DNA of 64,000 nucleotides from the NCBI GenBank assembly GCA_046563655.1, contig CM102287.1, forward strand, positions 496,001-560,000. The letters run 5' to 3'. Positions within the stretch are counted from its first letter, which is position 1, and each line of letters opens with the position of its first letter. Shown piece after piece: positions 48,001-64,000 of this stretch. A model generated the notes under the pieces. It searched no databases. It worked only from the letters and a program-made list of their open reading frames with translations, and was not told where the DNA came from. The stretch is from Yuukianura sp. NJ FZ-2021 (lineage: Eukaryota). A program made the translations under genes and the position numbers.

Positions 48001-51000
48001 TTATTACATTTTCTAAATCAAAATCGAACATTCAGCATTATTTGTTATTTTTATTAAAATTTTTAGGAAATACTTTTTTATGTCATACTACCACCTTGCA
48101 CTTCCAATAAAGCACACCTGAATAACTGGTGTTCAACAATAATCTGGAATTATATTTTAGCCCAACTCCACTATGCAACAAGTGCATAAATCTAACTGTC
48201 ATTTTGGTATAAACTAATGTGGGAACTATACAACGAAGTTTTAAACATACTGAAAAGTGGAATTTATGCCTTGTTATCGCTTATAACCATCTGCAAGGAA
48301 CGCATCTAATACCGGTCCACTTTGTCGTAGTGCATCAACGACTATTACACACGGTGAACCACTTGTTGTCAGCCTTCATTTTTGAGCACAAAGGAGAAGT
48401 GCCGGTGAAATGACAAGCTCGCCCTCACTACAGATACCAACCAGTACTCATTTTGACACGATGAATCACAATGACTCCGACGGCAATGGAACTTCAGGGG
48501 ATCCCATTATTACATTTTCTAAATCAAAATCGAACATTCAGCATTATTTGTTATTTTTATTAAAATTTTTAGGAAATACTTTTTTATGTCATACTACCAC
48601 CTTGCACTTCCAATAAAGCACACCTGAATAACTGGTGTTCAACAATAATCTGGAATTATATTTTAGCCCAACTCCACTATGCAACAAGTGCATAAATCTA
48701 ACTGTCATTTTGGTATAAACTAATGTGGGAACTATACAACGAAGTTTTAAACATACTGAAAAGTGGAATTTATGCCTTGTTATCGCTTATAACCATCTTC
48801 AAATAACGCATCTAATACCGGTCCACTTTGTCGTAGTGCATCAACGACTATTACACACGGTGAACCACTTGTTGTCAGCCTTAATTTTTGAGCACAAAGG
48901 AGAAGTGCCGGTGAAATGACAAGCTCGCCCTCACTACAGTTACCAACCAGTACTCATTTTGACACTACGAATCACAATGACTCCGACGGCAATGGAACTT
49001 CAGGGGATCCCATTATTACATTTTCTAAATCAAAATCGAACATTCAGCATTATTTGTTATTTTGATTAAAATTTTTAGGAAATACTTTTTTATGTCATAC
49101 TACCACCTTGCACTTCCAATAAAGCACACCTGAATAACTGGTGTTCAACAATAATCTGGAATTATATTTTAGCCCAACTCCACTATGCAACAAGTGCATA
49201 AATCTAACTGTCATTTTGGTATAAACTAATGTGGGAACTATACAACGAAGTTTTAAACATACTGAAAAGTGGAATTTATGCCTTGTTATCGCTTATAACC
49301 ATCTTCAAATAACGCATCTAATACCGGTCCACTTTGTCGTAGTGCATCAACGACTATTACACACGGTGAACCACTTGTTGTCAGCCTTAATTTTTGAGCA
49401 CAAAGGAGAAGTGCCGGTGAAATGACAAGCTCGCCCTCACTACAGTTACCAACCAGTACTCATTTTGACACTACGAATCACAATGACTCCGACGGCAATG
49501 GAACTTCAGGGGATCCCATTATTACATTTTCTAAATCAAAATCGAACATTCAGCATTATTTGTTATTTTGATTAAAATTGTTGGAAAGACTTTTTTGTCA
49601 TACTACCACCTTGCACTTCCAATAAAGCACACCTGAATAACTGGTGTTCAATATTAATCTGGAATTATATTTTAGCCCAACTTCACTATGCAACAAGTGC
49701 ATAAATCTAACTGTCATTTTGGTATAAACTAATGTGGGAACTATACAACAAAGTTTTAAACATACTGAAAAGTGGAATTTATGCCTTGTTATCGCTTATA
49801 GCCATCTGCAAGGAACGCATCTAATACCGGTCCACTTTGTCGTAGTGCATCAACGACTATTACACACGGTGAACCACTTGTTGTCAGCCTTAATTTTTGA
49901 GCACAAAGGAGAAGTGCCGGTGAAATGACAAGCTCGCCCTCACTACAGTTACCAACCAGTACTCATTTTGACACTACGAATCACAATGACTCCGACGGCA
50001 ATGGAACTTCAGGGGATCCCTTTATTACATTTTCTAAATCAAAATCGAACATTCAGCATTATTTGTTATTTTGATTAAAATTTTTAGGAAATATTTTTTA
50101 TGTCATATTACCACCTTGCACTTCTAATAAAGCACACCTGAATAACTGGTGTTCAACAATAATCTGGAATTATATTTTAGCCCAACTCCACTATGCAACA
50201 AGTGCATAAATCTAACTGTCATTTTGGTATAAACTAATGTGGGAACTATACAACGAAGTTTTAAACATACTGAAAAGTGGAATTTATGCCTTGTTATCGC
50301 TTATAACCATCTGCAAGGAACGAATCTAATACCGGTCCACTTTATCGTAGTGCATCAACGACTATTACACACGGTGAACCACTTGTTGTCAGCCTTAATT
50401 TTTGAGCACAAAGGAGAAGTGCCGGTGAAATGACAAGCTCGCCCTCACTACAGATACCAACCAGTACTCATTTTGACACTACGAATCACAATGACTCCGA
50501 CGGCAATGGAACTTCAGGGGATCCCATTATTACATTTTCTAAATCAAAATCGAACATTCAGCATTATTTGTTATTTTGATTAAAATTTTTAGGAAATACT
50601 TTTTTATGTCATACTACCACCTTGCACTTCCAATAAAGCACACCTGAATAACTGGTGTTCAACAATAATCTGGAATTATATTTTAGCCCAACTCAACTAT
50701 GCAACAAGTGCATAAATCTAACTGTCATTTTGGTATAAACTAATGTTGGAACTATACAACGAAGTTTTAAACATACTGAAAAGTGGAATTTATGCCTTGT
50801 TATCGCTTATAACCATCTTCAAATAACGCATCTAATACCGGTCCACTTTGTCGTAGTGCATCAACGACTATTACACATGGTGAACCACTTGTTGTCAGCC
50901 TTAATTTTTGAGCACAAAGGAGAAGTGCCGGTGAAATGACAAGCTCGCCCTCACTACAGTTACCAACCAGTACTCATTTTGACACTACGAATCACAATGA

Positions 51001-52565
51001 CTCCGACGGCAATGGAACTTCAGGGGATCCCATTATTACATTTTCTAAATCAAAATCGAACATTCAGCATTATTTGTTATTTTGATTAAAATTGTTGGAA
51101 AGACTTTTTTGTCATACTACCACCTTGCACTTCCAATAAAGCACACCTGAATAACTGGTGTTCAATATTAATCTGGAATTATATTTTAGCCCAACTTCAC
51201 TATGCAACAAGTGCATAAATCTAACTGTCATTTTGGTATCAACTAATGTGGGAACTATACAACAAAGTTTTAAACATACTGAAAAATGGAATTTATGCCT
51301 TGTTGTCGCTTATAACCATCTTCATGGAACGCATCTAATACCGGTACACTTTGTCGTAGTGCATCAACGACTATTACACACGGTGAACCACTTGTTGTCA
51401 GCCTTCATCTTTGAGCACAAAGGAGAAGTGCCGGTGAAATGACAAGCTCGCCATCACTACAGATACCTGCCAGTACTCATTTTGACACTACGAATCACAA
51501 TGACTCCGACTACAATGGAACTTCAGGGGATCCCATTATTACATTTTCTAAATCAAAATCGAACATTCAGCATTATTTGTTATTTTTATTAAAATTTTTA
51601 GGAAATACTTTTTTATGTCATACTACCACCTTGCACTTCCAATAAAGCACACCTGAATAACTGGTGTTCAACAATAATCTGGAATTATATTTTAGCCCAA
51701 CTCCACTATGCAACAAGTGCATAAATCTAACTGTCATTTTGGTATAAACTAATGTGGGAACTATACAACGAAGTTTTAAACATACTGAAAAGTGGACTTT
51801 ATGCCTTGTTATCGCTTATAACCATCCTCAAGTAACGCATCTAATACCGGTCCACTTTGTCGTAGTGCATCAACGACTATTACACACGGTGAACCACTTG
51901 TTGTCAGCCTTCATCTTTGAGCACAAAGGAGAAGTGCCGGTGAAATGACAAGCTCGCCCTCACTACAGATACCTGCCAGTACTCATTTTGACACTACGAA
52001 TCACAATGACTCCGACGGCAATGGAACTTCAGGGGATCCCATTATTACATTTTCTAAATCAAAATCGAACATTCAGCATTATTTGTTATTTTGATTAAAA
52101 TTTTTAGGAAATACTTTTTTATGTCATACTACCACCTTGCACTTCCAATAAAGCACACCTGAATAACTGGTGTTCAACAATAATCTGGAATTATATTTTA
52201 GCCCAACTCCACTATGCAACAAGTGCATAAATCTAACTGTCATTTTGGTATAAACTAATGTGGGAACTATACAACGAAGTTTTAAACATACTGAAAAGTG
52301 GAATTTATGCCTTGTTATCGCTTATAACCATCTTCAAATAACGCATCTAATACCGGTCCACTTTGTCGTAGTGCATCAACGACTATTACACACGGTGAAC
52401 CACTTGTTGTCAGCCTTCATTTTTGAGCACAAAGGAGAAGTGCCGGTGAAATGACAAGCTCGCCCTCACTACAGATACCAACCAGTACTCATTTTGACAC
52501 GATGAATCACAATGACTCCGACGGCAATGGAACTTCAGGGGTTCCCATTATTACATTTTCTACAT
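1..52565. repeat. Tandem satellite array, 506-bp unit, about 104 copies in window (open at left edge)
   Basis: The same sequence recurs every 506 bp (ORF-track starts 154, 660, 1166 ... 52260). Copies differ by a few recurrent SNPs and rare 1-4 bp indels. The last unit is cut after ...ttacattttctacat at 52565. Confidence 0.99.
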
Positions 52566-52936
52566 TGAAACCTCTCCCATCTCTCACTCTAACTATCATC
52601 GTATCATCATCTAATCTACATTCTCCTACGCTATCAATGGCGATAGAGAAATAATCAATCAATCTAACGATAATCCATAATCATAAATATCCAATAAAAA
52701 AAAGAGAAAGAACGGAATACCTATTCCTCATGAAGTTGCTCCCTAACTGATCTATGTTAGAACGATGACCTACTAGTCTAGCACTAGTCCTGGGGTTTCC
52801 TAAGTTCTTGGATTGGTTGGTGGAAGTCGGTAGGAATGAAAGTGAAAGTAGCTACACTTCAATGCTCTTTAAACATTTGTGGGCATAACCCAGCAGGAGG
52901 ACCTGAGTACTTTTACTAGTAAAGTGCTGTGGCTTT

Positions 52937-52945
52937 ACATACCTG
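52937..52945 (-). promoter_or_regulatory. Putative major splice donor in LTR (CAG|GTATGT)
   Basis: Near-consensus donor on the element strand about 270 nt downstream of the putative initiator, with no ATG in between. Confidence 0.55.
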
Positions 52946-53135
52946 AGGTTTTGGCCTGGCCTTGGCGCTACCCCTTACTGATGTTTGTATTGACCTCTCG
53001 ACCTCTCCTTGGGTTGGCTGGAGACTTTGGTTGGTGGTGGCACTCCCCGGGTTGACCCACGGTGGCTGGAGCGTCTCGTTGGAAGTTAGAAGTTGAAAGA
53101 AGTGAAGAAAAGAAATAGAAGTGAAAGTAGTTGCT

Positions 53136-53141
53136 TTTAAT
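53136..53141 (-). terminator. Putative polyadenylation signal ATTAAA in LTR
   Basis: Minus-strand ATTAAA followed ~15 nt later by a long T/C-rich tract (cttctatttcttttcttcacttctttc), downstream of the putative start site as expected for an R region. Confidence 0.5.
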
Positions 53142-53208
53142 TTAGACTTAAGGGCCAGGCTGGCCGAGTGCCTACTAGAAGTTAAGAGTTAAGTAAAAGC
53201 TACCGGAC

Positions 53209-53247
53209 AACTGACCAAGAGGTCGGACTACCGATCCTCTATTTATC
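53209..53247 (-). promoter_or_regulatory. Putative LTR core promoter: TATA-like GATAAATA plus initiator TCAGTT
   Basis: Minus-strand GATAAATA at 53247-53240 and TCAGTT at 53214-53209, about 33 nt apart. TCAGTY is the arthropod-type Inr consensus. Confidence 0.55.
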
Positions 53248-53677
53248 CCTAAAGATTAGACGATCTGAACATGCAAGAACATGATCTTCGAACTCATTAA
53301 CTAATAAACATGTCAAATTAATCTACACTTTGTAACTACAAAGTTTCAAAATCATCAAGTTTTCTAGTCTTTTTCTTATCTATGTTCTTACCAAAAAGAC
53401 ATAAACTTTGTCTTAGAATTTGAATTAGTAATGCTAACTAAGTGAAACTTAAGTCACGTCAGATTACTCATGACTTGACTTTTACTGTTGATTGCGAAAA
53501 GTCATAAACTTTTCGCAGTTGATAAGGGTGATCAGTCAGCACCCTGGGGTCGTCTCCCTCCTGATTAGGGAACACGCGAAAAAGGAATGAACTAATTCAT
53601 TCCCTTCTCCTGTGCTCCAGTGAGAAATCTGCCAATCAATACTTTAAAATTGATTGACAGCTTTCTCCACTGTTACA

Positions 53678-53691
53678 TCTTCCCCAACTTA
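53678..53691 (-). promoter_or_regulatory. Polypurine tract (plus-strand primer site)
   Basis: Minus-strand TAAGTTGGGGAAGA directly adjoining the TGTAACA start of the LTR. Confidence 0.85.
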
Positions 53692-53996
53692 GTCATGAGC
53701 CGTCCTCGGCGAATCCAAGTGTAACGAACTTAACTATCCTAACCTAACAAAACTTTTGTGACAAAGTCACGATTTCCGCGTGCCGTGATAACCTAGTAGC
53801 TAAGACATGATAAGCAGAGGTCACAAAGTGCGTTATCCTGAAGTGCCTAACTCATCCTATCAGTCTAGGACATTCTACAAATAAATTTACTACGTCTGCT
53901 GTCTCAAGCCCTCTCTACTAGGGCATATCTCTGTCATTAACCGTTACATGTACCGCAACAAGATGTACTACATTAAATTACTGAAGTCGTCAACAT

Positions 53997-55565
53997 TCAA
54001 TCCCAAGGATTCCGCTCTGGAGAGGGGATGGGGTGTCGGTTGTGCCAAGGGGTACTGGAAGGCGGAGGGGGTGTGTCACCTGGAGGGTGTAGATCTTCCC
54101 TTGTACCTCGTCTGTTTGCGCTCGGCGCTGCTTCCGGTCGACTCGATCGGGAACTCTTCCAAAGAAGGATTCCGGTCATCTGTTTCTGCATCGTGGCCAT
54201 CTGCTGCTCCAAAATTCGGACTCGCTCACGTAGCAGGGAACGTTCATCTCGATCGTGTTCTCTGGCCTCTCGGTGTCTCTGGTTCCGCTCTCGCCTGGCC
54301 TCACGCTTCTCATGGCGTTCCTGAGTCTTTGGTGCTTTGACCTGGACAACCTCCGGAATGAATTCTTGTATACGACGCTTCCCAACGGCAAGACAACTTT
54401 TTGACGAATGAAGAGGGTTTGGGACCATTGACGTAACTGGCACCTCTTTAGCTTTGGATGACGGTGGGCGAATAATGGCGTCGTTGAAGTCAAACTTGAT
54501 CTCGTACTCATGATACAAGGATGGCATGATACGTTCATATGCATCCGGCGGGATGCCTTCGGGTTTCGGGAGGCGACGAAATCTGCGCAGTACTCCTCGG
54601 ACAAACTCATCATTACTGCATCGCTTCCATACTTCAATATCGGCTTCAAACAAACTGATAGGGCAATCAAGATTTCGAGCTATGGTCACTACCGTTGTAT
54701 GAAGACATTGCAATCTGGTGGAGCATCCAAGATAAGTTGATTCAAATGCAGGGCGTGGGACGGAGAGAGCCACGTCTTTTTCTGTCTCATGTAGCCACCG
54801 GTCAATGATTCGCGTTGTCTGGTTCATGAAGTCTCGTCGTAGGGAGTCAGTAATGCCTAGCCAAACGTTCAGTAATTGCTCTGCAAAATCGGTCATCAGC
54901 TGGAAGTGTTCTATTACATGAGAGCTGAACTGAGTGTCACAAACGGTTTGGTAGTCTACCACTGCTACGTTTTCATCAATGTACTGCTGGCACAAGGCTG
55001 CATAACTGAAGGATGTAGTTGAGTCAGAGATTCCCACGAGTGGAAGTTTAGCGATATCCACTATACCCGCTGCTGTTATGCCAAAATCTCTAAGTAATGC
55101 CTTAAACTGACGTTCCCCTTGATACGTAATCTTCGCAATTTCTGAGGATTCCATCAAAATTCTTAAAGGCTCCTGCAGCTGCTTGGCGGTCTCTTTGGCG
55201 TCAATGACAAAACCTCGCTCTGGAGTCATGATTGCGATATGGGTGGTTTCCCCAAGATATGTCTGTTCGTTCTGGAACGCATAGATCACCATCGGTTTCC
55301 GATCATAGATCTTCCTGATGTTAGCCAGGAGTGTGGTTTCCTCCCTGATTATCTCGGGCAAGATCTGTGGTCTGTCTGATCTCAACGGCAAGTGTAACAG
55401 CTTATTACGCAAAGTAGAGCTGGCCCTCATCTCCATCATCTCTTTCTTTAGCTTGGGTTGAATGACCTCAATGTCGATATTTTTCTTATGTCTAATTTTA
55501 TAATATTCTGTAGGTGTTGTAAATAGCCTAATCTTATGCTGCTTTACATTCAGTATCTTTTGCAT
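53997..55565 (-). CDS. Accessory ORF F, 522 aa: Rrp6/RNase D-like (DEDDy-fold) exonuclease-like domain lacking catalytic residues, degenerate HRDC-like segment, basic region plus coiled coil, Pro-rich tail
   Basis: Motifs TYLGETTHIAIMTPERGFVID, LMESSEIAKITYQGERQFKALLRDFGI, IVDIAKL, SYAALCQQY and TIARNLD are colinear with Rrp6/RNase D motifs as recalled from memory. The ATG is preceded by tatttcaattccag. Confidence 0.75.
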   Translation of the reverse strand: MQKILNVKQHKIRLFTTPTEYYKIRHKKNIDIEVIQPKLKKEMMEMRASSTLRNKLLHLPLRSDRPQILPEIIREETTLLANIRKIYDRKPMVIYAFQNEQTYLGETTHIAIMTPERGFVIDAKETAKQLQEPLRILMESSEIAKITYQGERQFKALLRDFGITAAGIVDIAKLPLVGISDSTTSFSYAALCQQYIDENVAVVDYQTVCDTQFSSHVIEHFQLMTDFAEQLLNVWLGITDSLRRDFMNQTTRIIDRWLHETEKDVALSVPRPAFESTYLGCSTRLQCLHTTVVTIARNLDCPISLFEADIEVWKRCSNDEFVRGVLRRFRRLPKPEGIPPDAYERIMPSLYHEYEIKFDFNDAIIRPPSSKAKEVPVTSMVPNPLHSSKSCLAVGKRRIQEFIPEVVQVKAPKTQERHEKREARRERNQRHREAREHDRDERSLLRERVRILEQQMATMQKQMTGILLWKSSRSSRPEAAPSANRRGTREDLHPPGDTPPPPSSTPWHNRHPIPSPERNPWD

Positions 55566-55581
55566 TCTGGAATTGAAATAT

Positions 55582-56199
55582 TTACTTAGATTTAGTATTT
55601 ACACTTGCATTTGCACTTACAGCACTACTAGGTCCTGCTGCTGGTGACTCTTCTAACAATTTCAGCTTTCGGAGCACGTTAAACTTTAACGTTATGGCAT
55701 TAAATAATTCTGCGTGCACGAATAAATTTGTGCAAGTGTGAGTACGCTCCATGATATGCCACAACCCTACGATACTGTCGTATGGCTTCTTTGTGGTAAG
55801 ATCAATACAAACGTGTCCTGGATACATATAGAAATATTGAGGAGGATAAAAGCAAAATTGTTCTACTACCTCCATAATATCTTCTAAGCGCAGTGTTAAG
55901 AAGAAATCTACTGAGACTGCTACTTGTGACCGAAATTCGGTTTTCTGCCGTGCTATTTCTTCGAGCACTTCTATCAAGCTCCCTTTTGCTCGTGCACTCA
56001 CGACGTCTTCAATCGTCATGAAGCAAACGTGTCTTATTACACGTCCCATGGTTGGAATAATTTTAACATTTTTCAAAATTGTTCCAAAAGAATACAGGAG
56101 CCCGTCTCCTGACCCGTCTCCCTGAATCTGTCCTCTATTTCTGATGGACACTAAGCTTCGCACTCCGCGAATGCTTGGTACAATTTCCTGTACTTCCAC
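55582..56199 (-). CDS. Accessory ORF E, unknown function (start uncertain: frame open from 56250, first in-frame ATG at 56049)
   Basis: Frame of more than 200 codons on the element strand, tightly packed between ORFs D and F; no family recognised. Confidence 0.6.
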   Translation of the reverse strand: MEVQEIVPSIRGVRSLVSIRNRGQIQGDGSGDGLLYSFGTILKNVKIIPTMGRVIRHVCFMTIEDVVSARAKGSLIEVLEEIARQKTEFRSQVAVSVDFFLTLRLEDIMEVVEQFCFYPPQYFYMYPGHVCIDLTTKKPYDSIVGLWHIMERTHTCTNLFVHAELFNAITLKFNVLRKLKLLEESPAAGPSSAVSANASVNTKSK

Positions 56200-56340
56200 A
56201 ACTTCTGGTTGTGCAAATTTTTCACATATAAGTTGTGCGAATCTATCTAATTAATGGAAAAGCATATTGTGACATCCGTCTATATTCTAAAAATGACGTG
56301 TCGTTCATCTTGGTGAGTCTTCTTGATGACTCGGAATCTG

Positions 56341-57273
56341 CTATTCGCTTTCGTCTGTGTGATCGGACGATTCGGAGCTATTGGAGCTGCTACTAAAGAA
56401 CGGATCGCTGTTCCTGTGATAGTAAGATCGAAATTCTGCGTCATCATCCCATCCCATTTTTAGATATCTCATATTTCTCAAATGACTGTAATGGGCTTGA
56501 CGAGATTTCAACGATTTCTCGCGTTCTCTCCATATTACATTATGATAGTACATAAAGAAATCAATTTCCGAAGGTCTACCCCCATTGTACATCAAAATTG
56601 TGTGAACTTCTATCATTCGAGTCTTTAAGAATTCGGCTTCCCCGAACAAGATAGCATCCGCGGCTTCATGCGTTCTAACAATTCTACCTTTGTAAACTGG
56701 TACGTGCTGATATCGTTGTGCCAAATGGATCTTTTCATCTATATTTAGGGAAATGTAAACTCCGATGTTCAGAGCAAGATAAACCCCATCTACGTTATCG
56801 ACAATTTGTGTATGGATGGGATGACTGTGTTTTCTCATTCCCTTCGAAAACCTGTATACAGCCTCATGATGTGAGTATGGTAAAAGATAACTATCTTGAA
56901 CTAGTCCTGTCTTCGGATAATACCACATTTGAAATTCCTTGATCTTACCCTCAATGTAGTGGAGGCTATATTGCATATGTTTCCACATGGGTTGCTCTAT
57001 CTCTGGGAAACGGATTGATAACATACTCATTTCAATAGGGCTAAAACAACGAGCCTGACTGACTCTATGTTCCAATTCGCGTTGTTTCTCAACTCTCGAT
57101 TTCGTTGACGCTAGAATTGACTCGATATCTTTTACGTCTTGTAGGTACCCCTTACTAGGTTTGTACTCGCTCGCGGCGATCTCTTTCCAATGTTGTATCC
57201 ACTCAATAGTGGAGGGATCTCGGAATCTGTGCATCTGACTTTTCCAGTAATCGGGAGCTTGTCTCCTTGCCAT
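56341..57273 (-). CDS. Accessory ORF D, 310 aa, unknown function, Ser/acidic C-terminal tail
   Basis: Intact ATG-to-stop ORF. The ATG lies 2 nt after the acceptor-like tttaacttttag. No family recognised. Confidence 0.75.
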   Translation of the reverse strand: MARRQAPDYWKSQMHRFRDPSTIEWIQHWKEIAASEYKPSKGYLQDVKDIESILASTKSRVEKQRELEHRVSQARCFSPIEMSMLSIRFPEIEQPMWKHMQYSLHYIEGKIKEFQMWYYPKTGLVQDSYLLPYSHHEAVYRFSKGMRKHSHPIHTQIVDNVDGVYLALNIGVYISLNIDEKIHLAQRYQHVPVYKGRIVRTHEAADAILFGEAEFLKTRMIEVHTILMYNGGRPSEIDFFMYYHNVIWREREKSLKSRQAHYSHLRNMRYLKMGWDDDAEFRSYYHRNSDPFFSSSSNSSESSDHTDESE

Positions 57274-57308
57274 ATCTAAAAGTTAAATTATAATTACGGG
57301 AAAATCAT

Positions 57309-57322
57309 TCTTCCCCAACTTA
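57309..57322 (-). promoter_or_regulatory. Internal exact copy of the polypurine tract
   Basis: tcttccccaactta is identical (14/14) to 53678-53691. Confidence 0.7.
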
Positions 57323-57798
57323 TTTTCCTTTTGTTATACTTTCGGCATTTCTAATGTCGGTCCTGAGAGTTCGCTAAATGCAGTTTTTCTGAAGTTTCTG
57401 ACATTTATGACTCTTAAATTACTCTTTTTCCCATTGACTGTGATCTCTTAGTGACCTCATCACACTATCGCAAGCGAAATGTCCAGAACTTATTATAATA
57501 GAAAATCCTAAAAGAAGAAACGGCTATCCTGATAGAATTCCAGAGGTGTTGGTGATGTCAATGCGACTCCGACCATCCAAATCTCCGGACCTAAATTCTC
57601 CTGACTTTTCAACTTTCCCACAATTACGTTAACGTACAGCGTTAAGTTTTACGTTAACTTTTTCTGGAATTAATAAAAAAAAATCCAAAGCTTCTGACAT
57701 GGATGACTTATATCCTAAATAATGTGATTATGAAATCGGCGATGGTAGAGCTGAGTCAAATTTGAACGAGGAGGTTTGTTTACGACCTGCTCGTATGC

Positions 57799-60171
57799 TT
57801 AAACACGAGTATCTACGCTGGTAGATTCTTGAGCTGGTTCTTCCAACTCACTCACAGCGCTCTTAATCAAGTCCACAATTTTGTCAGCTTGTGGAGAATG
57901 CAAAATGATTTTCAGAGGTGGACGCCCTTGTTCAGCGTCTAAATTAAACTGAACCCTCGTTCCTACGAATGGTTCGGAAATATCCATTTTTCGCACTTTA
58001 TCTCGTTCCTCTCTCTGTTTCCTAAGTTGGTTCCTTTTACGCCAGTAAAACCAGGTGAGTCCTCCCAAAAGTACGAGTAATAAAACTAACCACATGACGA
58101 CGGTGAACATGTTAATAGCATGATGCAATTCTACGCCTGTGGGGTTTGCAACGGCTCCTCCTATCTGTCCTGCAAAGGGAACTCCAAAGACCATTCCCCC
58201 GTTTGCCATGAACTGTTTGTACAAGAGTAGCGCAACGCCTACCGAGAGTACTATGTTCCAAATTATCAACGCTGTATTTGTTGATGGGGCCGTTATTTGA
58301 ATTAATTTCGGAACCATCATGGACTTCAAATGACTCATTTCCGTTAGGTTCAACCTTGGAGAACCCAAATCCCAAGTCTCGTTAAATATCGTTTTCAAGT
58401 CGGGATACAACTTCTTCTCAGAGTTTCTGCCAAATCAAGTAGTGTTCAACAACACATCCATTCGTGCCATCATTGCCGGAATTACCAGATTTACTCGAGG
58501 TCTTTCTGCCAAACCGATAGGACATGGATACGGTGGTTTAATAGGCATTCTCCCCGGCAACTGCAACTCACAGTCGCATGCCAACTTAACTTCTATGCTT
58601 CCTATACCATGTGGTGGTGGCTCCAGTGGAAAATCAATATCATCATCTCTATTATGACATCTTATGTTCATGGTTTCGGTAGCCCCTGTAACTGCAAAAG
58701 TATGATGATCTAGTTGTGAAATCGTTAACTCGCTCTTGTCTGCCAAACATTCGAAAAGACAATACTCATTTAATTCCGCTAGTGATGCACCTCTCAGCAA
58801 CTTTTGGGCACACATGTAACCAGTGAGTGGATCCGAATTAAATTGAGGGATCAAACACAAGCCTGACTCTGGTTTACATTGTTGTAATTGAGTTCCCTGA
58901 ATTGTGACCAACGTATCGTTACTTAATGCCAGATATGTGGGTGCATGTTGCAGAATGCACGTACTACCCTTGTAACTGAATGGTATGTTAGTCATTGCGT
59001 ACAATTTCCAGTTTGCGGCCTTACGCCTGATTGGAATTCTCAATCTGAAAATCGTTCGTCCTTCCGTAGTAAAGGCACAATCAGCGATCTTTAATTTGTA
59101 ATATCTCGAAATTTCAGATGGTGGGACAACTAACTCATATCCATCGTTTTGCAATTGTTTTGACAATTCCCCCAAATCTGCAATCAATCGTTTGAATGGA
59201 ATTGCTAAGATAGAAATGGTTCCTGCTCTACAGTGATCTTGGAGATCTTTAAATCTCATAATCTCCATGATCGAATTAAGGTGTTCATAAATCTGGACAA
59301 AAGTCATTTGATGTGAAAGTAACTCTTTTTCCAACCGTTTCACATCTTTTGTCAGAGCATCTTCTTCTCCCTGTAATTCTTGTTGTTCGCGCATCGTTAT
59401 TTCAATCTGTCGGTGGACAGAAGCAAAAATGCGAGATGCATTGCCCTGAAACATTTCCAACCCTCCTTTTATGGTCATAAGATTCCGATTTGTTTCCACA
59501 ACTGAATCTTTCATGACAGAAAGAAACAGTTCCATCTTTTCCGAGTTCATGCTAATGTCACTTAAATCTCTTTTAGAAGCCACGCCACAACAGAATGACC
59601 ACCAGTCCCCAATTAAGGTTAAAGGGTTGAATGCCTGAAAATCAAATTCTCTTTTTCCCCGATTCGAAGCCTTGGCCTTGGATGTCTGCTTAGTTCGATT
59701 TAAACGAGCACGATTCCTTGCCTGCTGAATGGCAATCGGTATCTCGTCCAATGATATCAACGGCTTTTCTTTGACAATTTCGTTTCGGGTAGGGCCCATG
59801 TTCTCGTTGGACTTACCTTGATCTTCGCTTATCCCAAACGTACCTGATTCGTCCCTCATTAAGGAATCGGCTATGATATTTCCCAAAATTTCCGATACAT
59901 GTCCGATGGGCCTACGCATTGTGTTTGGGAAAATGCACGTTCCATCCACTTCCGCACATCTATAGGCCTCGAATACGTTTTTCTCAAATTCTCTGAATGA
60001 CACTTGTATGTCGTAGATCAATGGGACCGACGCGGTATACAATTCCGTGTTCCGGATTTCCCGGATCGTTGTTCCGGTTGTCACTCGAACCTCTGTCGGA
60101 GTGATCTGATATGCCACTCCCTTGGCAATAAATCCGATCGTCATCAACGCACTGATCAGTGTGCACGCCAT
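57799..60171 (-). CDS. env: Envelope (class I fusion) glycoprotein, 790 codons with one in-frame TGA at 58437-58435
   Basis: Signal peptide MACTLISALMTIGFIAKGVA, furin site RGKR (59661-59650), hydrophobic fusion-peptide-like FNPLTLIGDWWSFCCGV, heptad-repeat region and Cys-rich ectodomain. The track ORFs 58435-60195 and 57799-58410 are in the same frame, and the second carries the transmembrane segments. Confidence 0.85.
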
Positions 60172-60180
60172 TTTATTTTT

Positions 60181-60206
60181 CTGTACAAGAAGCAAGAAGG
60201 AAAATT
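60181..60206 (-). promoter_or_regulatory. env splice acceptor
   Basis: Minus-strand aattttccttcttgcttcttgtacag|aaaaataaaATG: a long polypyrimidine tract and CAG 9 nt before the signal-peptide ATG. Confidence 0.7.
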
Positions 60207-60255
60207 ATTATGCTAACCTACCTACCTATTGCTAGTGGTTCCTAACACTAAACCA

Positions 60256-61023
60256 CTAGTCAAAATCTCTGAGACTTCGATCTGTTTGACAAATGTATTC
60301 TGCTTTTTCTTCGTCCATATAAAATCCAAAACCTTGAAAAATTCGAAACAAATCATTCCGAATCTGTTGTCGTCTTGGGGACAACGTATCCCAATAAGCC
60401 TGATATCGTATTTGAAACACGTAAGTAAATGGCTTCCATTTGCTTTCTGGTTCTCCCAGTTCGCGTAAAACTTTGGCCAATCGACTGTATGTGAACATGG
60501 TGAAAACATTATGAGGCTTCTTGACACATTTGACGCCAATAAGCCTATCCGAAATTAGTGTTCGCTGTGGAATAACATTCCATTCAGCATCTGCGATTAA
60601 GTCGACCCAACAGTCCACGCTGATATTGATAATTGCACTAGGTTTTAACGTGAATGGACAGTGAATTAAGCGCACGATGTCCGTCATTTCAACATGTTTC
60701 CATTTCATAGGTACTTGAGCCAAGTACCACAACTTCTCGTGTCTAGCTGTTTCCAGTTCATCTACTACATTTACAGTGGGCCGATCTGGGTATCGCTTTC
60801 CACAAAATTCAAACTGCTCGACTATGGAACACCTTGTGTCCATTGTTTTTCTAATAATTAAGGCTATTTCGTTACTAAGTTCGGGAAATGCTTCAGCTAC
60901 ATTGTTTGCGTCTAAAGCGTTGAGTTCTTTTATGATGATTTCTAGGACGTCGAATCCCAAAGCAGTGAAGTGGAGTGGAGTGTATGCAAGCGGCTTCATT
61001 GTAGTCTCGCTTCTCCCTTCCAT
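60256..61023 (-). CDS. Accessory ORF C, 255 aa, divergent paralog of ORFs A and B, F-box-like N-terminus
   Basis: Shares HEKLWYLAQVP, DIVRLIHCPF, YWDTLSPRRQQIR and EYIC blocks with A and B. N-terminal FTALGFDVLEIIIKELNALDA. First ATG at 61023. Confidence 0.8.
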   Translation of the reverse strand: MEGRSETTMKPLAYTPLHFTALGFDVLEIIIKELNALDANNVAEAFPELSNEIALIIRKTMDTRCSIVEQFEFCGKRYPDRPTVNVVDELETARHEKLWYLAQVPMKWKHVEMTDIVRLIHCPFTLKPSAIINISVDCWVDLIADAEWNVIPQRTLISDRLIGVKCVKKPHNVFTMFTYSRLAKVLRELGEPESKWKPFTYVFQIRYQAYWDTLSPRRQQIRNDLFRIFQGFGFYMDEEKAEYICQTDRSLRDFD

Positions 61024-61149
61024 TTCCTTAAATATTATAACCTCTGATATATGCCTTAATATCAAAATCCTAGTTCAAATATTTATTCAACTACTCAAGT
61101 CCTCCTACTAAGGCTACTTGCAGCTATTATGTCTAATGACTTTCAGTTA

Positions 61150-61920
61150 TTACTGATTGTATCTATCAGAAAACCTACACAGAAATTCTACATACTCGTC
61201 TGTAACATCCCTACCATTCTCGGTACATCTTCTCTTATATACAACACGCATACGCCTCTGTCTGAAGCTTAGTGTACTCAGGTACTTATCGTACTCACTT
61301 TTGTATCTGACTAACAATTCTTGTCGCACGGACTCTTTTCCGTTTGTTTCCTCTATGGCGGTTACAATTCGCATAAAGTTAAATGGATACGTCGTTATGA
61401 CATCTTTACGAAAGCTTACTGTCTTGGGCGGCGTACGCCCATACGGTAGATCTGCATGGATGTGGTGTCCTTGAGTTTCAACTAACTCTATGAGCTCGCT
61501 AGCTAGCAAACTTCTAAATGTTTCTACTTTACATACGAAGCCGCAATTCAAAATTCTAAATACATCCATACAACTGAATGGGGCAAATTCTATTGGCAGC
61601 TGTGCCAAGTACCATCGTTTCTCATGATTACAAACACGCATTTCAATTTCACAGTGAAAGGCGTTCGCACTTCCAAACAAATTAAATGTCTCGATTAATT
61701 CATCCCAATTAGTCATGACCTTTTCTATCTCTTTAGCAAATAAGGTTATGATCCTGGGATATGCATGTAAAGCATCGTTGAACTTTGACGCATCTAAAAC
61801 GCTTAGCTTTCTAGCTATACTGATTAGAGGTAGATCGTCCAGTGACGAAATGTTCCTTTGGATGTGAAGACGGCGTTTCTTAGCCGGTTCTCCCTCTGTT
61901 TCTGTGTGCTTCAATTCCAT
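61150..61920 (-). CDS. Accessory ORF B, 256 aa, paralog of A and C, NLS-like PAKKRRL and F-box-like N-terminus
   Basis: LDDLPLISIARKLSVLDASKF, HEKRWYLAQLPI, YPFNF, YKSEYDKYLSTLSFRQRRMR and DEYVEFLC. First ATG at 61920. Confidence 0.85.
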   Translation of the reverse strand: MELKHTETEGEPAKKRRLHIQRNISSLDDLPLISIARKLSVLDASKFNDALHAYPRIITLFAKEIEKVMTNWDELIETFNLFGSANAFHCEIEMRVCNHEKRWYLAQLPIEFAPFSCMDVFRILNCGFVCKVETFRSLLASELIELVETQGHHIHADLPYGRTPPKTVSFRKDVITTYPFNFMRIVTAIEETNGKESVRQELLVRYKSEYDKYLSTLSFRQRRMRVVYKRRCTENGRDVTDEYVEFLCRFSDRYNQ

Positions 61921-61986
61921 AGTTATTCCTACCAAAATTTTGTATTTCTATTCTCAGTTAAATCAGCTTAATGACCACGTTATGTT

Positions 61987-62802
61987 TTACTCAAGACCTC
62001 CTGCTGAGGCTGGGATTTGAAAATCGTAAAGTAGATTTTTCGCATCTGAAAGCTGACACACAAATTCGACATATTCGTCGGAAACATTCCTTTGGTTTTC
62101 GGCACATTCTCTCTTCACAGTCTCCCGCATTTGTCTTTGCCTGGGGCTGAGAGAGTTTAAGTATTTTTCGTATTCACTCTTATAATTCTGCAATAACTGC
62201 TGGTATACTGATTCATCCCCTTTCATCTCTCTCACCACTTGTGCCAATTTGCAGAAATTAAACGGGTAATCCTGAAAATGCTGTTTATGAAATCTGACTG
62301 ACCTAGGGGTTCGTGATCTAAAGCATGCTCCTGCGGAGACTTCTACCTTCAAAGTGTTTACGATTTCTATAAGGTCGTCAGCAGACAAAGCCTTAAAAAC
62401 CTCTGCATCACACCTGAACCCACAGTGTAGGATTCTGAATAAGTCGATATGTCTAACGGGTGTGTGATCAATCGGTATCTGAGACATGTACCATCTCTTC
62501 TCGTGAGATCCGTATTTTTGTTCCGTCTCGAACTGATCAGGGGGTACGAGGCTGAGTAATTCAAATTTTTCTATTACTGTATCCCAGTTGGCCATTGCCC
62601 TATCGATCTCTGTTTCTACTAGTTCTACTACTCTTGGGTACCCTTGAACAGCTTCCTTGAACTTGGAGGCGTCCATTACGCACAGCTTTCTTATAATGCT
62701 GATGAGTGGCAAATCACTCAGTGACGTAAGTTCTCTTTGGATCTGAAGATGGCTTTCCTTTGCCGGTCCGTGTTTGGACACTTCTGTGTTCTTCGAATCC
62801 AT
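61987..62802 (-). CDS. Accessory ORF A, 271 aa, paralog of B and C, F-box-like N-terminus
   Basis: LSDLPLISIIRKLCVMDASKF, HEKRWYMSQIPI, YPFNF, YKSEYEKYLNSLSPRQRQMR and DEYVEFVC. First ATG at 62802. Confidence 0.85.
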   Translation of the reverse strand: MDSKNTEVSKHGPAKESHLQIQRELTSLSDLPLISIIRKLCVMDASKFKEAVQGYPRVVELVETEIDRAMANWDTVIEKFELLSLVPPDQFETEQKYGSHEKRWYMSQIPIDHTPVRHIDLFRILHCGFRCDAEVFKALSADDLIEIVNTLKVEVSAGACFRSRTPRSVRFHKQHFQDYPFNFCKLAQVVREMKGDESVYQQLLQNYKSEYEKYLNSLSPRQRQMRETVKRECAENQRNVSDEYVEFVCQLSDAKNLLYDFQIPASAGGLE

Positions 62803-62929
62803 TGTTTTTCTCAATATCCTGACAAATTTTGTATATCTAAAATTTTTAGTCAATAAGCCTATGGTTTACAGGCCTACAGTTTATATTATCCAACAGCGCT
62901 TGGACACGAAAGATCCAATGTGCAAGGCT

Positions 62930-64000
62930 TTAGTCTAGGAATCTAACTGGTTTTCGGACTACTCGGCCGTACCTTGTCGTAACTACATTTTTCTCTTCGA
63001 CTTTTACTTCTTTATCTTTTAACTCTGCTTGTCTAATCTCTTCATCTTCAGAAGATTCTAAGAACTCTTCAGATTCTACATCAGAGGATTCCACGTCCTC
63101 TTCCAATTCATCGGTTTCCAACTCATTGGGAACATCCGACTCCAACGGTATTTCAAAATTCAAAATATTCGTCAACTCATTTGAAACTGCTCTAGCATTA
63201 TCCTTGCTGATCGAAATTCCTTTCAACTCTTCGGCTAAGTCATCAGAATTTTCTTGGGTGGGTCTATTACAACCGTCTTCCCCAACTTGATCTGCCGCTA
63301 CTCCTGGAGCGGAAAGTCCCTCACAAATGTGAAGTAAATCATCTTCAACATAACGCTTCAAATTTTCAATATGTACTCTAACTGGGACATCATCCGAAGC
63401 CGCACCAACAGGTGAGCAATGATACGCTAAGGGTGAGACCTTCTGTACAACAACATATGGACCTTTATACCGCATGGCCAATTTCCGAGTTCGGCCAGCT
63501 TTGACAACTTTAACTTTAATGAGAACCTTATCTCCAATGTCATATTCCAACGGGAGACGTTTGGGATCGAACAAACCAGCTTGCTTTTTCTGTGCTTTTT
63601 GAATACCAACCCGAGCCAATTCTCTGGCCTCGTGCATTTTACGAATCCGTGATGGGATGTCTTCCCATTGTCGCGATGTATCCAACGCAACGTCAAGAGG
63701 ATGGAACGGATGGCGTCCATACATGATATAATAGCTGCTAAACCCCGTACTCTCTTTGTGAACCGCGGTATTTAGTGCAAAAACAGCAGAACCTAAATAC
63801 CGATCCCAGTCCCTTTGACTCTGCAGCACATAATTAGATAAAATTTCTTCGATACTACGGTTACTTCGTTCAACTAGTCCATTGGTACGACTATGATAAG
63901 GTGTGGAATACAAGTTCACAGTTCCAATCAAAGAATTGAACTGTTTAAAGAAAGATGATCGGAACGTACTAGCATTATCCGTCTGAATTGATTTAAACAC
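62930..64000 (-). CDS. pol: Pol polyprotein C-terminus: Ty3/gypsy integrase core end, GPY/F module, acidic tail (5' truncated by window)
   Basis: IQTDN...YSTPYHSRTNGLVERSN with exactly 35 residues between D and E. Also WDRYL, TGFSSYYIMYGR, YKGPYVV, VHIENLKRY and terminal TRYGRVVRKPVRF. Confidence 0.97.
   Translation of the reverse strand: MFKSIQTDNASTFRSSFFKQFNSLIGTVNLYSTPYHSRTNGLVERSNRSIEEILSNYVLQSQRDWDRYLGSAVFALNTAVHKESTGFSSYYIMYGRHPFHPLDVALDTSRQWEDIPSRIRKMHEARELARVGIQKAQKKQAGLFDPKRLPLEYDIGDKVLIKVKVVKAGRTRKLAMRYKGPYVVVQKVSPLAYHCSPVGAASDDVPVRVHIENLKRYVEDDLLHICEGLSAPGVAADQVGEDGCNRPTQENSDDLAEELKGISISKDNARAVSNELTNILNFEIPLESDVPNELETDELEEDVESSDVESEEFLESSEDEEIRQAELKDKEVKVEEKNVVTTRYGRVVRKPVRFLD

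What the first reader, a model, noticed from the sequence alone, without database searches (positions are those of the whole stretch)
52937..62838. One LTR leader and many acceptors: predicted set of subgenomic spliced mRNAs
Seen on the minus strand: an ATG-free ~270-nt stretch from the Inr (53212) to CAG|GTATGT (GT at 52942). Acceptor-like AGs precede the first ATG of A (62838 and 62820), B (61949 and 61930), C (61071), env (60182), D (57277, tttag|atATG) and F (55568, ttccag|aATG). In each case the next ATG is the ORF start. A and B share the upstream motif tag a[at]atacaaaattt..ag ga. Inference: the equivalent donor in the 5' LTR is alternatively spliced to each gene, as in complex retroviruses. 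The C acceptor is weak.
Basis: partly seen in the sequence, partly recalled or inferred. Interest (0 to 1): 0.7.

Follow-up and report, generated by a model that had tools for sequence, protein, structure and literature searches.

The report
Predicted splicing scheme of a retroelement

Summary
Window 52566-64000 (minus strand) is the 3' part of an env-bearing Ty3/gypsy element inserted in a 506-bp satellite. It reads integrase end, paralogs A/B/C, F-type env (cut by one in-frame stop), D, E, an exonuclease-like F, and a 1112-nt 3' LTR.

**Observation:** The 270-nt leader has no ATG and ends at CAG|GTATGT, one of the 4 best of 633 GT sites.

**How strong the signals are:**
- The env acceptor is outstanding under two crude scores (rank 4 of 784; 3 of 783).
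- It recurs just before the env ATG in two relatives with 49% and 43% env identity.
- D and F acceptors are moderate.
- A, B and C acceptors are no better than ordinary AGs.
- E has no acceptor.

**Indirect support:**
- Five ATG-free spacers.
- Good start-codon contexts.
- Few internal AATAAA.
- Only one TATA+Inr pair, in the LTR.

**Limits:** no RNA run was listed, and the 5' LTR lies outside the window. Known errantivirus donors lie near gag, not in the LTR.

**New here:** a donor-like GTARGT sits 40-45 nt before the env acceptor in all three elements, and 54 nt before F. The scheme is probably not "one donor only".

The scan noted a similar acceptor-before-ATG pattern on other DNA of this genome (e1-7468604).

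**Verdict:** partly supported; a new variant of a known kind.

The parts
52566..53677 (-). 3' LTR (1112 nt), TGTAACAG...GGTTTCA; U3 about 53677-53213, R about 53212-53119, U5 to 52566
   Evidence: It starts right after the polypurine tract. It ends where the 506-bp satellite resumes: the 12 nt before the satellite marker are GATTTTGATTTA in 101 of 103 units but GGTTTCAATGTA here. The U3/R/U5 split is inferred from motifs only.
53678..53690 (-). 3' polypurine tract AAGTTGGGGAAGA
   Evidence: Exact 13-mer abutting the LTR start. There are 3 exact copies on this strand against 0.15 expected.
53240..53247 (-). TATA-like box (ATAAATAG)
   Evidence: Only TATA-like + Inr pair found on the minus strand of the element.
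53210..53215 (-). Inr-like GTCAGT/TCAGTT, proposed start A at 53212
   Evidence: Motif only; no start-site data.
53136..53141 (-). ATTAAA, the only canonical poly(A) hexamer in the LTR, followed by a T-rich stretch
   Evidence: It lies 199 nt upstream of the candidate donor.
52943..53212 (-). Candidate leader exon, 270 nt, ATG-free
   Evidence: 0 ATG; part of the longest ATG-free run (332 nt); shuffle P=0.026.
52937..52945 (-). Candidate 5' splice site CAG|GTATGT
   Evidence: 8 of 9 consensus matches, among the 4 best of 633 GT. Its use is not shown.
62930..64000 (-). 3' end of pol (integrase C-terminus), runs off the window
   Evidence: SH3_Tf2-1 E 8.6e-7, 29.4 bits, just under the cut-off of 30. 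53% identical to the pol end of L002, which carries RVT_1, RT_RNaseH, Integrase_H2C2 and SH3_Tf2-1.
62819..62838 (-). Two acceptor-like AGs before A (ttttAG|at, gtcAG|ga)
   Evidence: Ranks 79 and 104 of 784, and 269 and 382 of 783.
61987..62802 (-). ORF A (271 aa)
   Evidence: No Pfam family above cut-off. No homolog found for the A/B/C alignment.
61929..61949 (-). Two acceptor-like AGs before B
   Evidence: Ranks 316 and 181 of 784: weak.
61150..61920 (-). ORF B (256 aa), 48% identical to A
61070..61071 (-). Acceptor-like AG before C (weak)
   Evidence: Rank 181 of 784; 517 of 783.
60256..61023 (-). ORF C (255 aa), 27% identical to A
60216..60225 (-). Donor-like GTAGGTAGGT, 45/41 nt upstream of the env acceptor
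   Evidence: The same hexamer type sits 45 nt (L002) and 40 nt (L003) before their env acceptors, and is the only GTARGT on the sense strand of each.
60181..60182 (-). env acceptor (ttccttcttgcttcttgtacAG|aaaaataaaATG)
   Evidence: Rank 4 of 784 and 3 of 783. Position conserved in L002 and L003.
57799..60171 (-). env gene: ORF 60171-58435 plus same-frame ORF 58338-57799, separated by one in-frame stop codon at 58435-58437
   Evidence: Baculo_F E 9.4e-8, 31.5 bits, cut-off 24.1. Translation across the stop. Relatives of 717-740 aa are continuous there.
57276..57277 (-). D acceptor (aatttaacttttAG|atATG)
   Evidence: Rank 17 of 784; 89 of 783. It bypasses 7 ATGs in the 525-nt spacer.
56341..57273 (-). 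ORF D (310 aa)
   Evidence: No Pfam family.
55582..56049 (-). ORF E (155 aa), no acceptor free of upstream ATGs
55615..55620 (-). Donor-like GTAAGT inside the last 12 codons of E, 54 nt before the F acceptor, with a TACTAAA branch-like motif between
55567..55568 (-). F acceptor (tttcaattccAG|aATG)
   Evidence: Rank 39 of 784; 170 of 783.
53997..55565 (-). ORF F (522 aa), 3'-5' exonuclease-like
   Evidence: DNA_pol_A_exo1 E 5.6e-6, 26.7 bits, cut-off 23.6. No homolog in the word-based search.
57309..57321 (-). Internal exact copy of the polypurine tract, 36 nt before D's ATG
63276..63288 (-). Internal exact copy of the polypurine tract inside the integrase ORF
1..52565 (.). 506-bp satellite array into which the element is inserted

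Best explanation
This is the 3' part of a large env-bearing Ty3/gypsy (errantivirus-like) element. Its genes after pol most likely reach the ribosome on a nested set of 3'-coterminal subgenomic mRNAs made by alternative splicing of an LTR-driven transcript.

Shown from sequence:
- The gene order.
- The LTR with a TATA/Inr pair and a poly(A) hexamer.
- An ATG-free 270-nt leader that ends at a strong donor.
- ATG-free spacers and good start-codon contexts.
- A strong env acceptor kept in two distant relatives.

Inferred:
- The 5' LTR copy of the donor, or another donor near gag outside the window, is joined to acceptors just before env, D and F.
- It is joined less certainly to acceptors before A, B and C.
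- Each mRNA then translates its first ORF.
- The donor in U5 may also help the 5' LTR transcript read past the ATTAAA 199 nt upstream. This rests on a recalled parallel with the HIV-1 major donor, not on a test.

The scheme is probably more complex than one donor. Donor-like GTARGT hexamers sit 40-54 nt upstream of the env and F acceptors, and the env one is conserved in relatives.
For: Need for separate 5' ends:
- Spacers of 16-127 nt carry no ATG: 419 nt, P=5e-5.
- 6 of 7 ORF starts have a purine at -3 and G at +4, against 30 of 203 for all ATGs.
- Internal AATAAA is rare on the sense strand: 2 against 8.7+-3.0 in shuffles.
- The only TATA-like+Inr pair is in the LTR.

env acceptor:
- It ranks 4 of 784 and 3 of 783.
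- L002 and L003 (env 49% and 43% identical) have a top-ranked YAG 1 and 7 nt before the env ATG: 5 of 406 and 2 of 157.
- Their upstream ATGs lie before the AG.

D and F acceptors lie 2 and 1 nt before the ATG, and D's bypasses 7 ATGs.

Donor:
- 8 of 9 consensus matches, among the 4 best of 633 GT.
- It sits at the end of the longest ATG-free run.

Precedent (passages read):
- Env of Drosophila errantiviruses comes from spliced subgenomic RNA (bioRxiv 10.1101/2023.08.03.551782; PMC4276936).
- Tor3a env is spliced from the 5' LTR transcript (PMC4402516).
- Cer1 CERV comes from a spliced 5-exon mRNA (PMC10309623).
- Rotifer ORF3s are 'expressed from spliced messages' (PMC5408684).
Against: - No junction, start site or transcript was seen.
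- The 5' LTR and leader are outside the window, so the donor's presence there rests on LTR identity, which I could not check.
- A strong donor somewhere in 640 nt of R-U5 is not rare by itself (my estimate is about 0.2, from 4 of 633 GT sites).
- Mapped env donors of Drosophila errantiviruses and Tor3a lie upstream of gag or within it, not in the LTR.
- After the donor, U5 holds 11 ATGs. This is awkward for gag translation from unspliced RNA and makes a 553-nt U5 look unusual.
- A, B and C acceptors score like ordinary AGs, and E has none.
- The scores are home-made and not trained on host introns.
- This copy's env carries an in-frame stop, so the copy may be inactive.
- A TATAAA lies in the pol-A spacer.
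Confidence: 0.5

Rival explanations
1. The donor is elsewhere. The genes are spliced as proposed, but from a donor downstream of the 5' LTR (leader or start of gag), as in the errantiviruses mapped so far. The U5 GTATGT is then unused, or serves only to bind U1 and suppress the nearby poly(A) signal.
For: Passages read:
[quoted passage not shown] The region that would hold such a donor lies beyond 64000. A second donor-like GTAGGT also lies in U5 at 52773.
Against: The ATG-free run ends exactly at the U5 donor, and 11 ATGs follow it. A leader exon that extended further would carry upstream ATGs into every subgenomic mRNA.
Confidence: 0.2
2. Internal promoters. Some or all of the accessory genes, above all the A/B/C cassette, are transcribed from starts inside the element. 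The AGs before them are incidental or belong to short local introns.
For: - Tor3b/4b elements of Oikopleura express env from an internal promoter (PMC4402516, passages).
- TATAAA at 62885-62880 sits about 31 nt before a weak Inr-like CTTATTG in the pol-A spacer.
- A, B and C acceptors are weak.
- The A/B upstream motif is conserved but need not be a splice signal.
- GTARGT...AG pairs of 40-54 nt look like complete short introns that could sit in 5' UTRs.
Against: - No TATA+Inr pair outside the LTR in my scan.
- The A-B spacer is 66 nt, the E-F spacer 16 nt, and they lack poly(A) hexamers, leaving little room for independent units.
- In L002 and L003 the upstream ATGs lie before the env acceptor and before the GTARGT. 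A start upstream of them would keep those ATGs even after removal of the short intron.
Confidence: 0.15
3. Chance signals in a dead copy. Apart from the env acceptor, the AGs and the donor are ordinary dinucleotides in AT-rich spacers. This copy, with env interrupted by a stop, makes no such RNAs.
For: - AG occurs 784 times on the strand.
- A/B/C sites rank 269-517 of 783.
- The overall enrichment is only p=0.023.
- env has an in-frame stop.
- No look-alike stretch was found in other scanned windows.
Against: - ATG-free spacers (P=5e-5) and start-codon contexts (6 of 7) point to selection for translation of each ORF.
- All other ORFs are open.
- The env acceptor and its upstream GTARGT are conserved in relatives.
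Confidence: 0.1
4. Spliced-leader trans-splicing. If the host uses it, each acceptor receives a host SL rather than the LTR leader, resolving a polycistronic transcript.
For: The acceptor-just-before-ATG geometry (1-9 nt for env, D, F) and the short same-strand spacers resemble operon processing. That resemblance is recalled knowledge, not tested here.
Against: The host is not identified and no SL sequence is known. Earlier notes call it arthropod-like. The ATG-free leader ending at a donor has no role in this model.
Confidence: 0.05

Closest known systems
Drosophila errantiviruses (gypsy, ZAM, Idefix, springer; insect endogenous retroviruses)
   Same: Ty3/gypsy pol followed by an F-type (Baculo_F) env. 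Env is translated from a spliced subgenomic RNA, with the acceptor close to the env start (passages; Pfam).
   Different: They have one extra gene (env) and one intron. The donor lies upstream of gag or within it. Here at least six further ORFs flank env, and the candidate donor lies in U5 of the LTR.
Complex retroviruses (lentiviruses, deltaretroviruses, foamy viruses)
   Same: The proposed logic is the same: one major 5' donor, several alternative acceptors, nested 3'-coterminal mRNAs, and extra internal donors. Internal polypurine tracts also occur there (abstract of PMC5294762 for foamy virus; the rest is recalled).
   Different: Different family (Metaviridae-like pol, F-type env), and no sequence relation of the accessory genes. 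No RNA evidence here. No Rev/Rex-like export factor has been identified.
Cer1 of C. elegans (CERV)
   Same: An invertebrate Ty3/gypsy LTR element that makes an accessory protein from a spliced mRNA using host-type splice sites (PMC10309623, passages).
   Different: Cer1 makes one accessory product from five exons partly shared with gag, and has no env. Here there are many separate ORFs, each with its own ATG.
Tor elements of Oikopleura dioica
   Same: Env-bearing Ty3/gypsy elements in which env expression was mapped. Tor3a splices from the 5' LTR transcript (PMC4402516, passages).
   Different: Tor3b/4b use an internal promoter instead. This is the documented precedent for the main rival.
Juno/Vesta LTR elements of bdelloid rotifers with extra ORFs
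   Different: They usually carry a single ORF3. No homology to F was found here. Splice sites were not compared.

Membership tests
Env-bearing Ty3/gypsy element (errantivirus-like, Metaviridae) | Ty3/gypsy-type pol (RT-RNase H-integrase order) upstream of env | tested here: inconclusive
   Only the integrase C-terminus is in the window: SH3_Tf2-1 at 29.4 bits against a cut-off of 30. It is 53% identical to the pol end of L002, whose 899-aa ORF has RVT_1, RT_RNaseH, Integrase_H2C2 and SH3_Tf2-1.
Env-bearing Ty3/gypsy element (errantivirus-like, Metaviridae) | Envelope gene of viral fusion-protein type after pol | tested here: met
   Baculo_F E 9.4e-8, 31.5 bits, above the cut-off of 24.1. Signal-peptide-like N-terminus and a membrane segment in the C-terminal part. 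The gene is interrupted by one in-frame stop.
Env-bearing Ty3/gypsy element (errantivirus-like, Metaviridae) | LTRs with TG...CA ends, polypurine tract before the 3' LTR, PBS after the 5' LTR, target-site duplication | tested here: inconclusive
   The 3' LTR (TG...CA) and the PPT are met. The 5' LTR, PBS and duplication lie outside the window, and no genome is held.
Env-bearing Ty3/gypsy element (errantivirus-like, Metaviridae) | env expressed from a spliced subgenomic mRNA | not testable with these tools
   No RNA run was listed. Only sequence signals and their conservation are available.
Complex-retrovirus-type expression (one major donor, many acceptors) | Promoter and start site in the LTR | tested here: inconclusive
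   TATA-like box and TCAGTT 34 nt apart, the only such pair on the strand. Motifs only.
Complex-retrovirus-type expression (one major donor, many acceptors) | A major 5' splice site in the leader, present in the 5' copy | tested here: inconclusive
   CAG|GTATGT in U5 of the 3' LTR, 8 of 9 matches. The 5' copy was not seen and use is not shown.
Complex-retrovirus-type expression (one major donor, many acceptors) | A functional 3' splice site before each downstream gene | tested here: inconclusive
   - env: strong and conserved.
- D, F: moderate.
- A, B, C: not above background.
- E: none.

Complex-retrovirus-type expression (one major donor, many acceptors) | Observed leader-to-gene junctions in RNA | not testable with these tools
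   One search listed no run, so read laying could not be used.
Complex-retrovirus-type expression (one major donor, many acceptors) | A factor or element that exports unspliced RNA (Rev/RRE, CTE, CERV-like) | not tested
   No Pfam assignment for A-E. No test was made.

The most novel reading that the evidence does not exclude
An invertebrate Ty3/gypsy errantivirus-like element runs a lentivirus-like, multi-exon splicing programme. A leader donor inside U5 and internal donor/acceptor modules express six or more accessory proteins. The conserved module 'GTARGT, 40-45 nt, strong acceptor, env ATG' is kept in three elements that share only 43-49% env identity. It would act as a regulatory device, either a minimal intron or a decoy 5' splice site, that sets the balance between unspliced genomic RNA and env mRNA.
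Probability: 0.15. Interest if true: 0.75.

Novelty: new variant of a known kind. Interest (0 to 1): 0.5.

Why it matters
Spliced env mRNAs are known for errantiviruses, and multi-acceptor splicing is a hallmark of complex retroviruses. No paper I searched or read describes an LTR retrotransposon that needs six or more separate messages (searches; 0 occurrences of 'splic' in the 2026 survey of env-carrying elements).

If the prediction holds, regulated alternative splicing, and the need to export unspliced RNA, arose in Metaviridae-like elements independently of vertebrate retroviruses.

The conserved donor-like hexamer just upstream of the env acceptor gives a concrete, mutable element for testing how such elements balance genomic and subgenomic RNA.

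If the prediction fails and internal promoters are used, the element would extend the Tor3b/4b exception to a whole gene set.

Tried and rejected
RNA evidence:
- The look-up of sequencing runs on window:52900-62890, kind rna. No RNA holder was listed.
- No whole genome is held for the window, so the 5' LTR, PBS and sister copies could not be fetched.

Earlier-findings look-ups:
- By sequence and by relatives: look-alike stretches in 0 windows.
- An 8-word look-up found nothing.

Relatives:
- Viral contigs with env, A and the env alignment gave none. One 20-residue match, L001, was taken as spurious.
- Genome contigs with the env alignment gave none.
- Metagenome contigs gave 4 loci. L004 and L005 match only 88 env residues at 36%, show fragmented ORFs, and were dropped from all counts.
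- Homolog searches for the A/B/C alignment and for F found nothing at E<=0.001 in the near-length class. 'Longer' and 'shorter' were not tried, so this is not proof that they stand alone.

Ideas that did not hold:
- A hairpin pairing the GTAGGT region with the pyrimidine tract. It is predicted in the window (z -2.35) and weakly in L002 (z -0.87), but not in L003 (z 0.0) or before F (z 0.53). Not conserved, so rejected.
- Recursive-splice-site reading (AG|GTAGGT). It is exact only in the window. In L002 and L003 the preceding AG is 5 and 1 nt away. Not adopted.
- Removing the 54-nt GTAAGT...CAG unit before F does not fuse E to F. E would end 10 codons later in another frame.
- Internal repeats in the LTR gave no alternative LTR end.
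- Rfam: 3 matches, all below their gathering scores.

Full report
**What is in the window**

Bases 1 to 52565 are a very uniform 506-bp satellite.
- Composition is flat at GC 0.37.
- 17 copies are 95-100% identical in 44000-52417.
- The 506-nt periodicity stops near 52560-52580.
- An 18-base marker recurs 103 times.

From 52566 to the window end, the minus strand carries the 3' part of an LTR retroelement:
- The end of pol (integrase C-terminus, 62930-64000).
- Three paralogous ORFs: A 62802-61987, B 61920-61150 and C 61023-60256. B is 48% and C 27% identical to A.
- env (60171-58435).
- A same-frame ORF (58338-57799).
- D (57273-56341), E (56049-55582) and F (55565-53997).
- An LTR.

Pfam results:
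- Baculo_F for env: E 9.4e-8, 31.5 bits, cut-off 24.1.
- DNA_pol_A_exo1 for F: 26.7 bits, cut-off 23.6.
- SH3_Tf2-1 for the pol end: 29.4 bits, just under its cut-off of 30.
- Nothing above cut-off for A-E.

env and the next ORF are one gene cut by a single in-frame stop at 58435-58437. Three database relatives of 717-740 aa are continuous across that point, and their continuation aligns with the downstream ORF.

**The LTR**

- The 13-mer AAGTTGGGGAAGA abuts TGTAACAG at 53677. It occurs three times exactly on this strand against 0.15 expected.
- The other end is ...GGTTTCA at 52566, after which the satellite resumes. The 12 bases before the marker are GATTTTGATTTA in 101 of 103 units, but GGTTTCAATGTA at the junction.
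- The LTR is therefore 1112 nt, TG...CA.
- Inside it, ATAAATAG (53246) and TCAGTT (A at 53212) form the only TATA-like+Inr pair that a simple scan finds on the minus strand of the 11.4-kb stretch.
- ATTAAA at 53141, followed by a T-rich stretch, is the only canonical poly(A) hexamer in the LTR.
- This gives U3 of about 465 nt, R of about 94 nt and an unusually long U5 of about 553 nt. That split is inferred from motifs.

**Checking the observation**

Every coordinate is right.

Leader and donor:
- The leader 53212->52943 is 270 nt without ATG.
- It sits in the longest ATG-free run of the element (332 nt), which ends in the ATG of the donor's own GTATGT.
- The shuffle probability of no ATG in 270 nt is 0.026.
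- CAG|GTATGT matches 8 of 9 consensus positions. Only 4 of 633 GT sites do as well, and it is the only such site after the start site in the LTR.
- By itself, a good donor somewhere in 640 nt is not rare (about 0.2 by my estimate from those counts).
- Eleven ATGs follow in the rest of U5.

Acceptors:
- The AGs exist as described, and the next ATG is always the ORF start.
- For A, B, C and env this is because the whole spacers lack ATG: five spacers, 419 nt, 0 ATG against 8.5 expected from the strand's density. P=5e-5 by shuffling within spacers.

**Are the acceptors better than chance?**

I could not calibrate a model on host introns, because none are in the window, so I used two crude scores.

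| Site | Weighted score, rank of 784 AGs | Pyrimidine count, AGs scoring as high, of 783 |
|---|---|---|
| env | 4 | 3 |
| D | 17 | 89 |
| F | 39 | 170 |
| A | 79 and 104 | 269 and 382 |
| B | 316 and 181 | 269 and 382 |
| C | 181 | 517 |

- ORF-start ATGs have somewhat better upstream acceptors than the other 196 ATGs (one-sided p=0.023).
- E has no AG between the preceding ATG and its own.
- So env is robust, D and F are moderate, A/B/C are not distinguishable from background, and E is not covered by the model.
- The shared A/B motif is real. Its 30-nt window is 73% identical against 57% for the coding DNA overall, as high as the best-conserved coding windows. With two sequences this shows constraint but not its nature.

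**Indirect evidence that each ORF needs its own 5' end**

- 6 of 7 ORF starts have a purine at -3 and G at +4, against 30 of 203 for all ATGs.
- Sense-strand AATAAA is rare inside the element: 2 against 8.7+-3.0 in shuffles.
- No AATAAA or ATTAAA lies between A's start and 61087.
- The A-B and E-F spacers are 66 and 16 nt.
- The RNAs must therefore be long and overlapping at their 3' ends. By scanning, only the first ORF of each would be read.
- This fits splicing, but also internal starts.

**Relatives**

The env search found three proteins (49, 43 and 37% identity). The metagenome scan returned the contigs of two of them, L002 and L003, plus two fragmentary loci that I dropped.
- L002 reads pol (RVT_1, RT_RNaseH, Integrase_H2C2, SH3_Tf2-1), then env 76 nt later, then a 101-aa ORF, then what looks like an LTR start (TGTGACAGT).
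- Neither L002 nor L003 has anything like A-F.
- The window's element is therefore an expanded form.

In both relatives the env ATG is preceded by a top-ranked acceptor:
- L002: ccctcttgtaatccctAG|aATG, rank 5 of 406.
- L003: ataactcttctAG|aactactATG, rank 2 of 157.
- In both, the spacer's upstream ATG lies before that AG.
- The acceptor is thus conserved in position although the spacers no longer align. This is comparative support for env splicing, and the best-supported part of the finding.

- The hexamer GTARGT, the intron side of a 5' splice site, lies 45 and 41 nt before the env acceptor AG in the window (60225, 60221).
- It lies 45 nt before the env acceptor in L002 (2731) and 40 nt before it in L003 (126).
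- In L002 and L003 it is the only GTARGT on the whole sense strand (5.7 and 2.4 kb).
- The share of AGs with such a hexamer 37-62 nt upstream is 10 of 910, 2 of 407 and 3 of 162.
- I noticed it in the window first, so the two relatives are independent tests, with a joint chance of about 1e-4 from those shares.
- A GTAAGT also lies 54 nt before the F acceptor, inside E's last 12 codons, with TACTAAA between.

What the hexamer does is open. It could be a real minimal intron, a decoy donor that tempers the acceptor, or a donor used to skip env.
- A hairpin explanation is not conserved.
- The recursive-site form is exact only in the window.
- Other strong donor-like sites lie inside env: AAG|GTAAGT at 59816 (9 of 9) and CAG|GTACGT at 59843.
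- The element therefore has the raw material for more than 'one donor, many acceptors'.

**What is known**

| Source | What I saw | Content |
|---|---|---|
| PMC4276936 | passages | gypsy env comes from a spliced mRNA |
| PMC4402516 | passages | Tor3a env is spliced from the 5' LTR transcript; Tor3b/4b env starts at an internal promoter |
| PMC10309623 | passages | Cer1 CERV is made from a spliced five-exon mRNA |
| PMC5408684 | passage | ORF3s of LTR retrotransposons 'are expressed from spliced messages' |
| PMC13524379, the 2026 survey of env-carrying elements | outline and term search | 0 occurrences of 'splic', 'subgenomic' or 'accessory' |

- My three literature searches listed no paper on a multi-acceptor LTR retrotransposon. 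The searches match words, not meaning.
- The scan itself noted a similar acceptor-before-ATG cassette in another element of this genome (e1-7468604). I did not test that one.

**Verdict**

Splicing to env is well supported by conservation, splicing to D and F is plausible, and splicing to A, B and C rests on context rather than on the sites themselves. E is unexplained.
- The LTR location of the donor is a reasonable guess that runs against the mapped examples and cannot be checked here.
- No RNA evidence could be obtained.
- I put the splicing model, with the donor either in U5 or near gag, at about 0.7 in total, of which 0.5 is for the statement as given. I put internal promoters at 0.15.

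Noticed in passing
window 53678-53690, 57309-57321, 63276-63288 (minus strand): The polypurine tract AAGTTGGGGAAGA occurs three times exactly: at the LTR border, 36 nt before D's ATG, and inside the integrase ORF. Expected 0.15 matches. These look like internal (central) polypurine tracts, as in lentiviruses and foamy viruses, in a long element.
   Followed up: partly
window 58435-58437 (minus strand): A single in-frame stop codon splits env into a 578-aa part and a 179-aa part holding the membrane segments. Relatives of 717-740 aa are continuous there. Either this copy's env is broken or the stop is read through.
   Followed up: partly
window 55582-62802 (minus strand): The start codons of A, B, C, env, D and E all lie in the same reading frame. 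Tandem duplication explains A/B/C; the rest is unexplained and may be chance (about 1 in 80).
   Followed up: no
window 52772-52935 (minus strand): A perfect 12-nt palindrome TTTACTAGTAAA lies a few bases after the candidate donor. ACTAGT occurs three times within 150 nt of U5, out of 7 in the whole window. It may be a dimerisation or packaging feature; this was not tested.
   Followed up: no
window 59816 and 59843 (minus strand): The best donor-like sites of the whole element (AAG|GTAAGT, 9 of 9; CAG|GTACGT, 8 of 9) lie about 110-120 codons into env. Both end the exon in phase 1, which would be in frame with D's ATG through the D acceptor. The chance of that is 1 in 3.
   Followed up: no
window 62880-62885 (minus strand): TATAAA in the pol-A spacer, about 31 nt before a weak Inr-like CTTATTG. 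It is one of only 3 TATAAA on the strand and could be an internal promoter for the A/B/C cassette.
   Followed up: partly
L002 1-5702 and L003 1-2422: Two metagenome contigs carry simpler relatives (pol, env, and in L002 a 101-aa ORF) with no A-F genes. The accessory cassettes of the window's element are therefore lineage-specific additions. L002's extra ORF also has an AG 1 nt before its ATG (rank 33 of 406).
   Followed up: partly
window 1-52565: A satellite of 506-bp units, 95-100% identical, fills more than 52 kb. TRF misses it because the period exceeds 500.
   Followed up: partly
window 57540-57700 (minus strand): The 525-nt spacer between env and D holds the two best-scoring acceptor-like sites outside env (57664, 57508) and AACGTTAACG-type palindromes. 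No ORF was assigned and the role is unknown.
   Followed up: no
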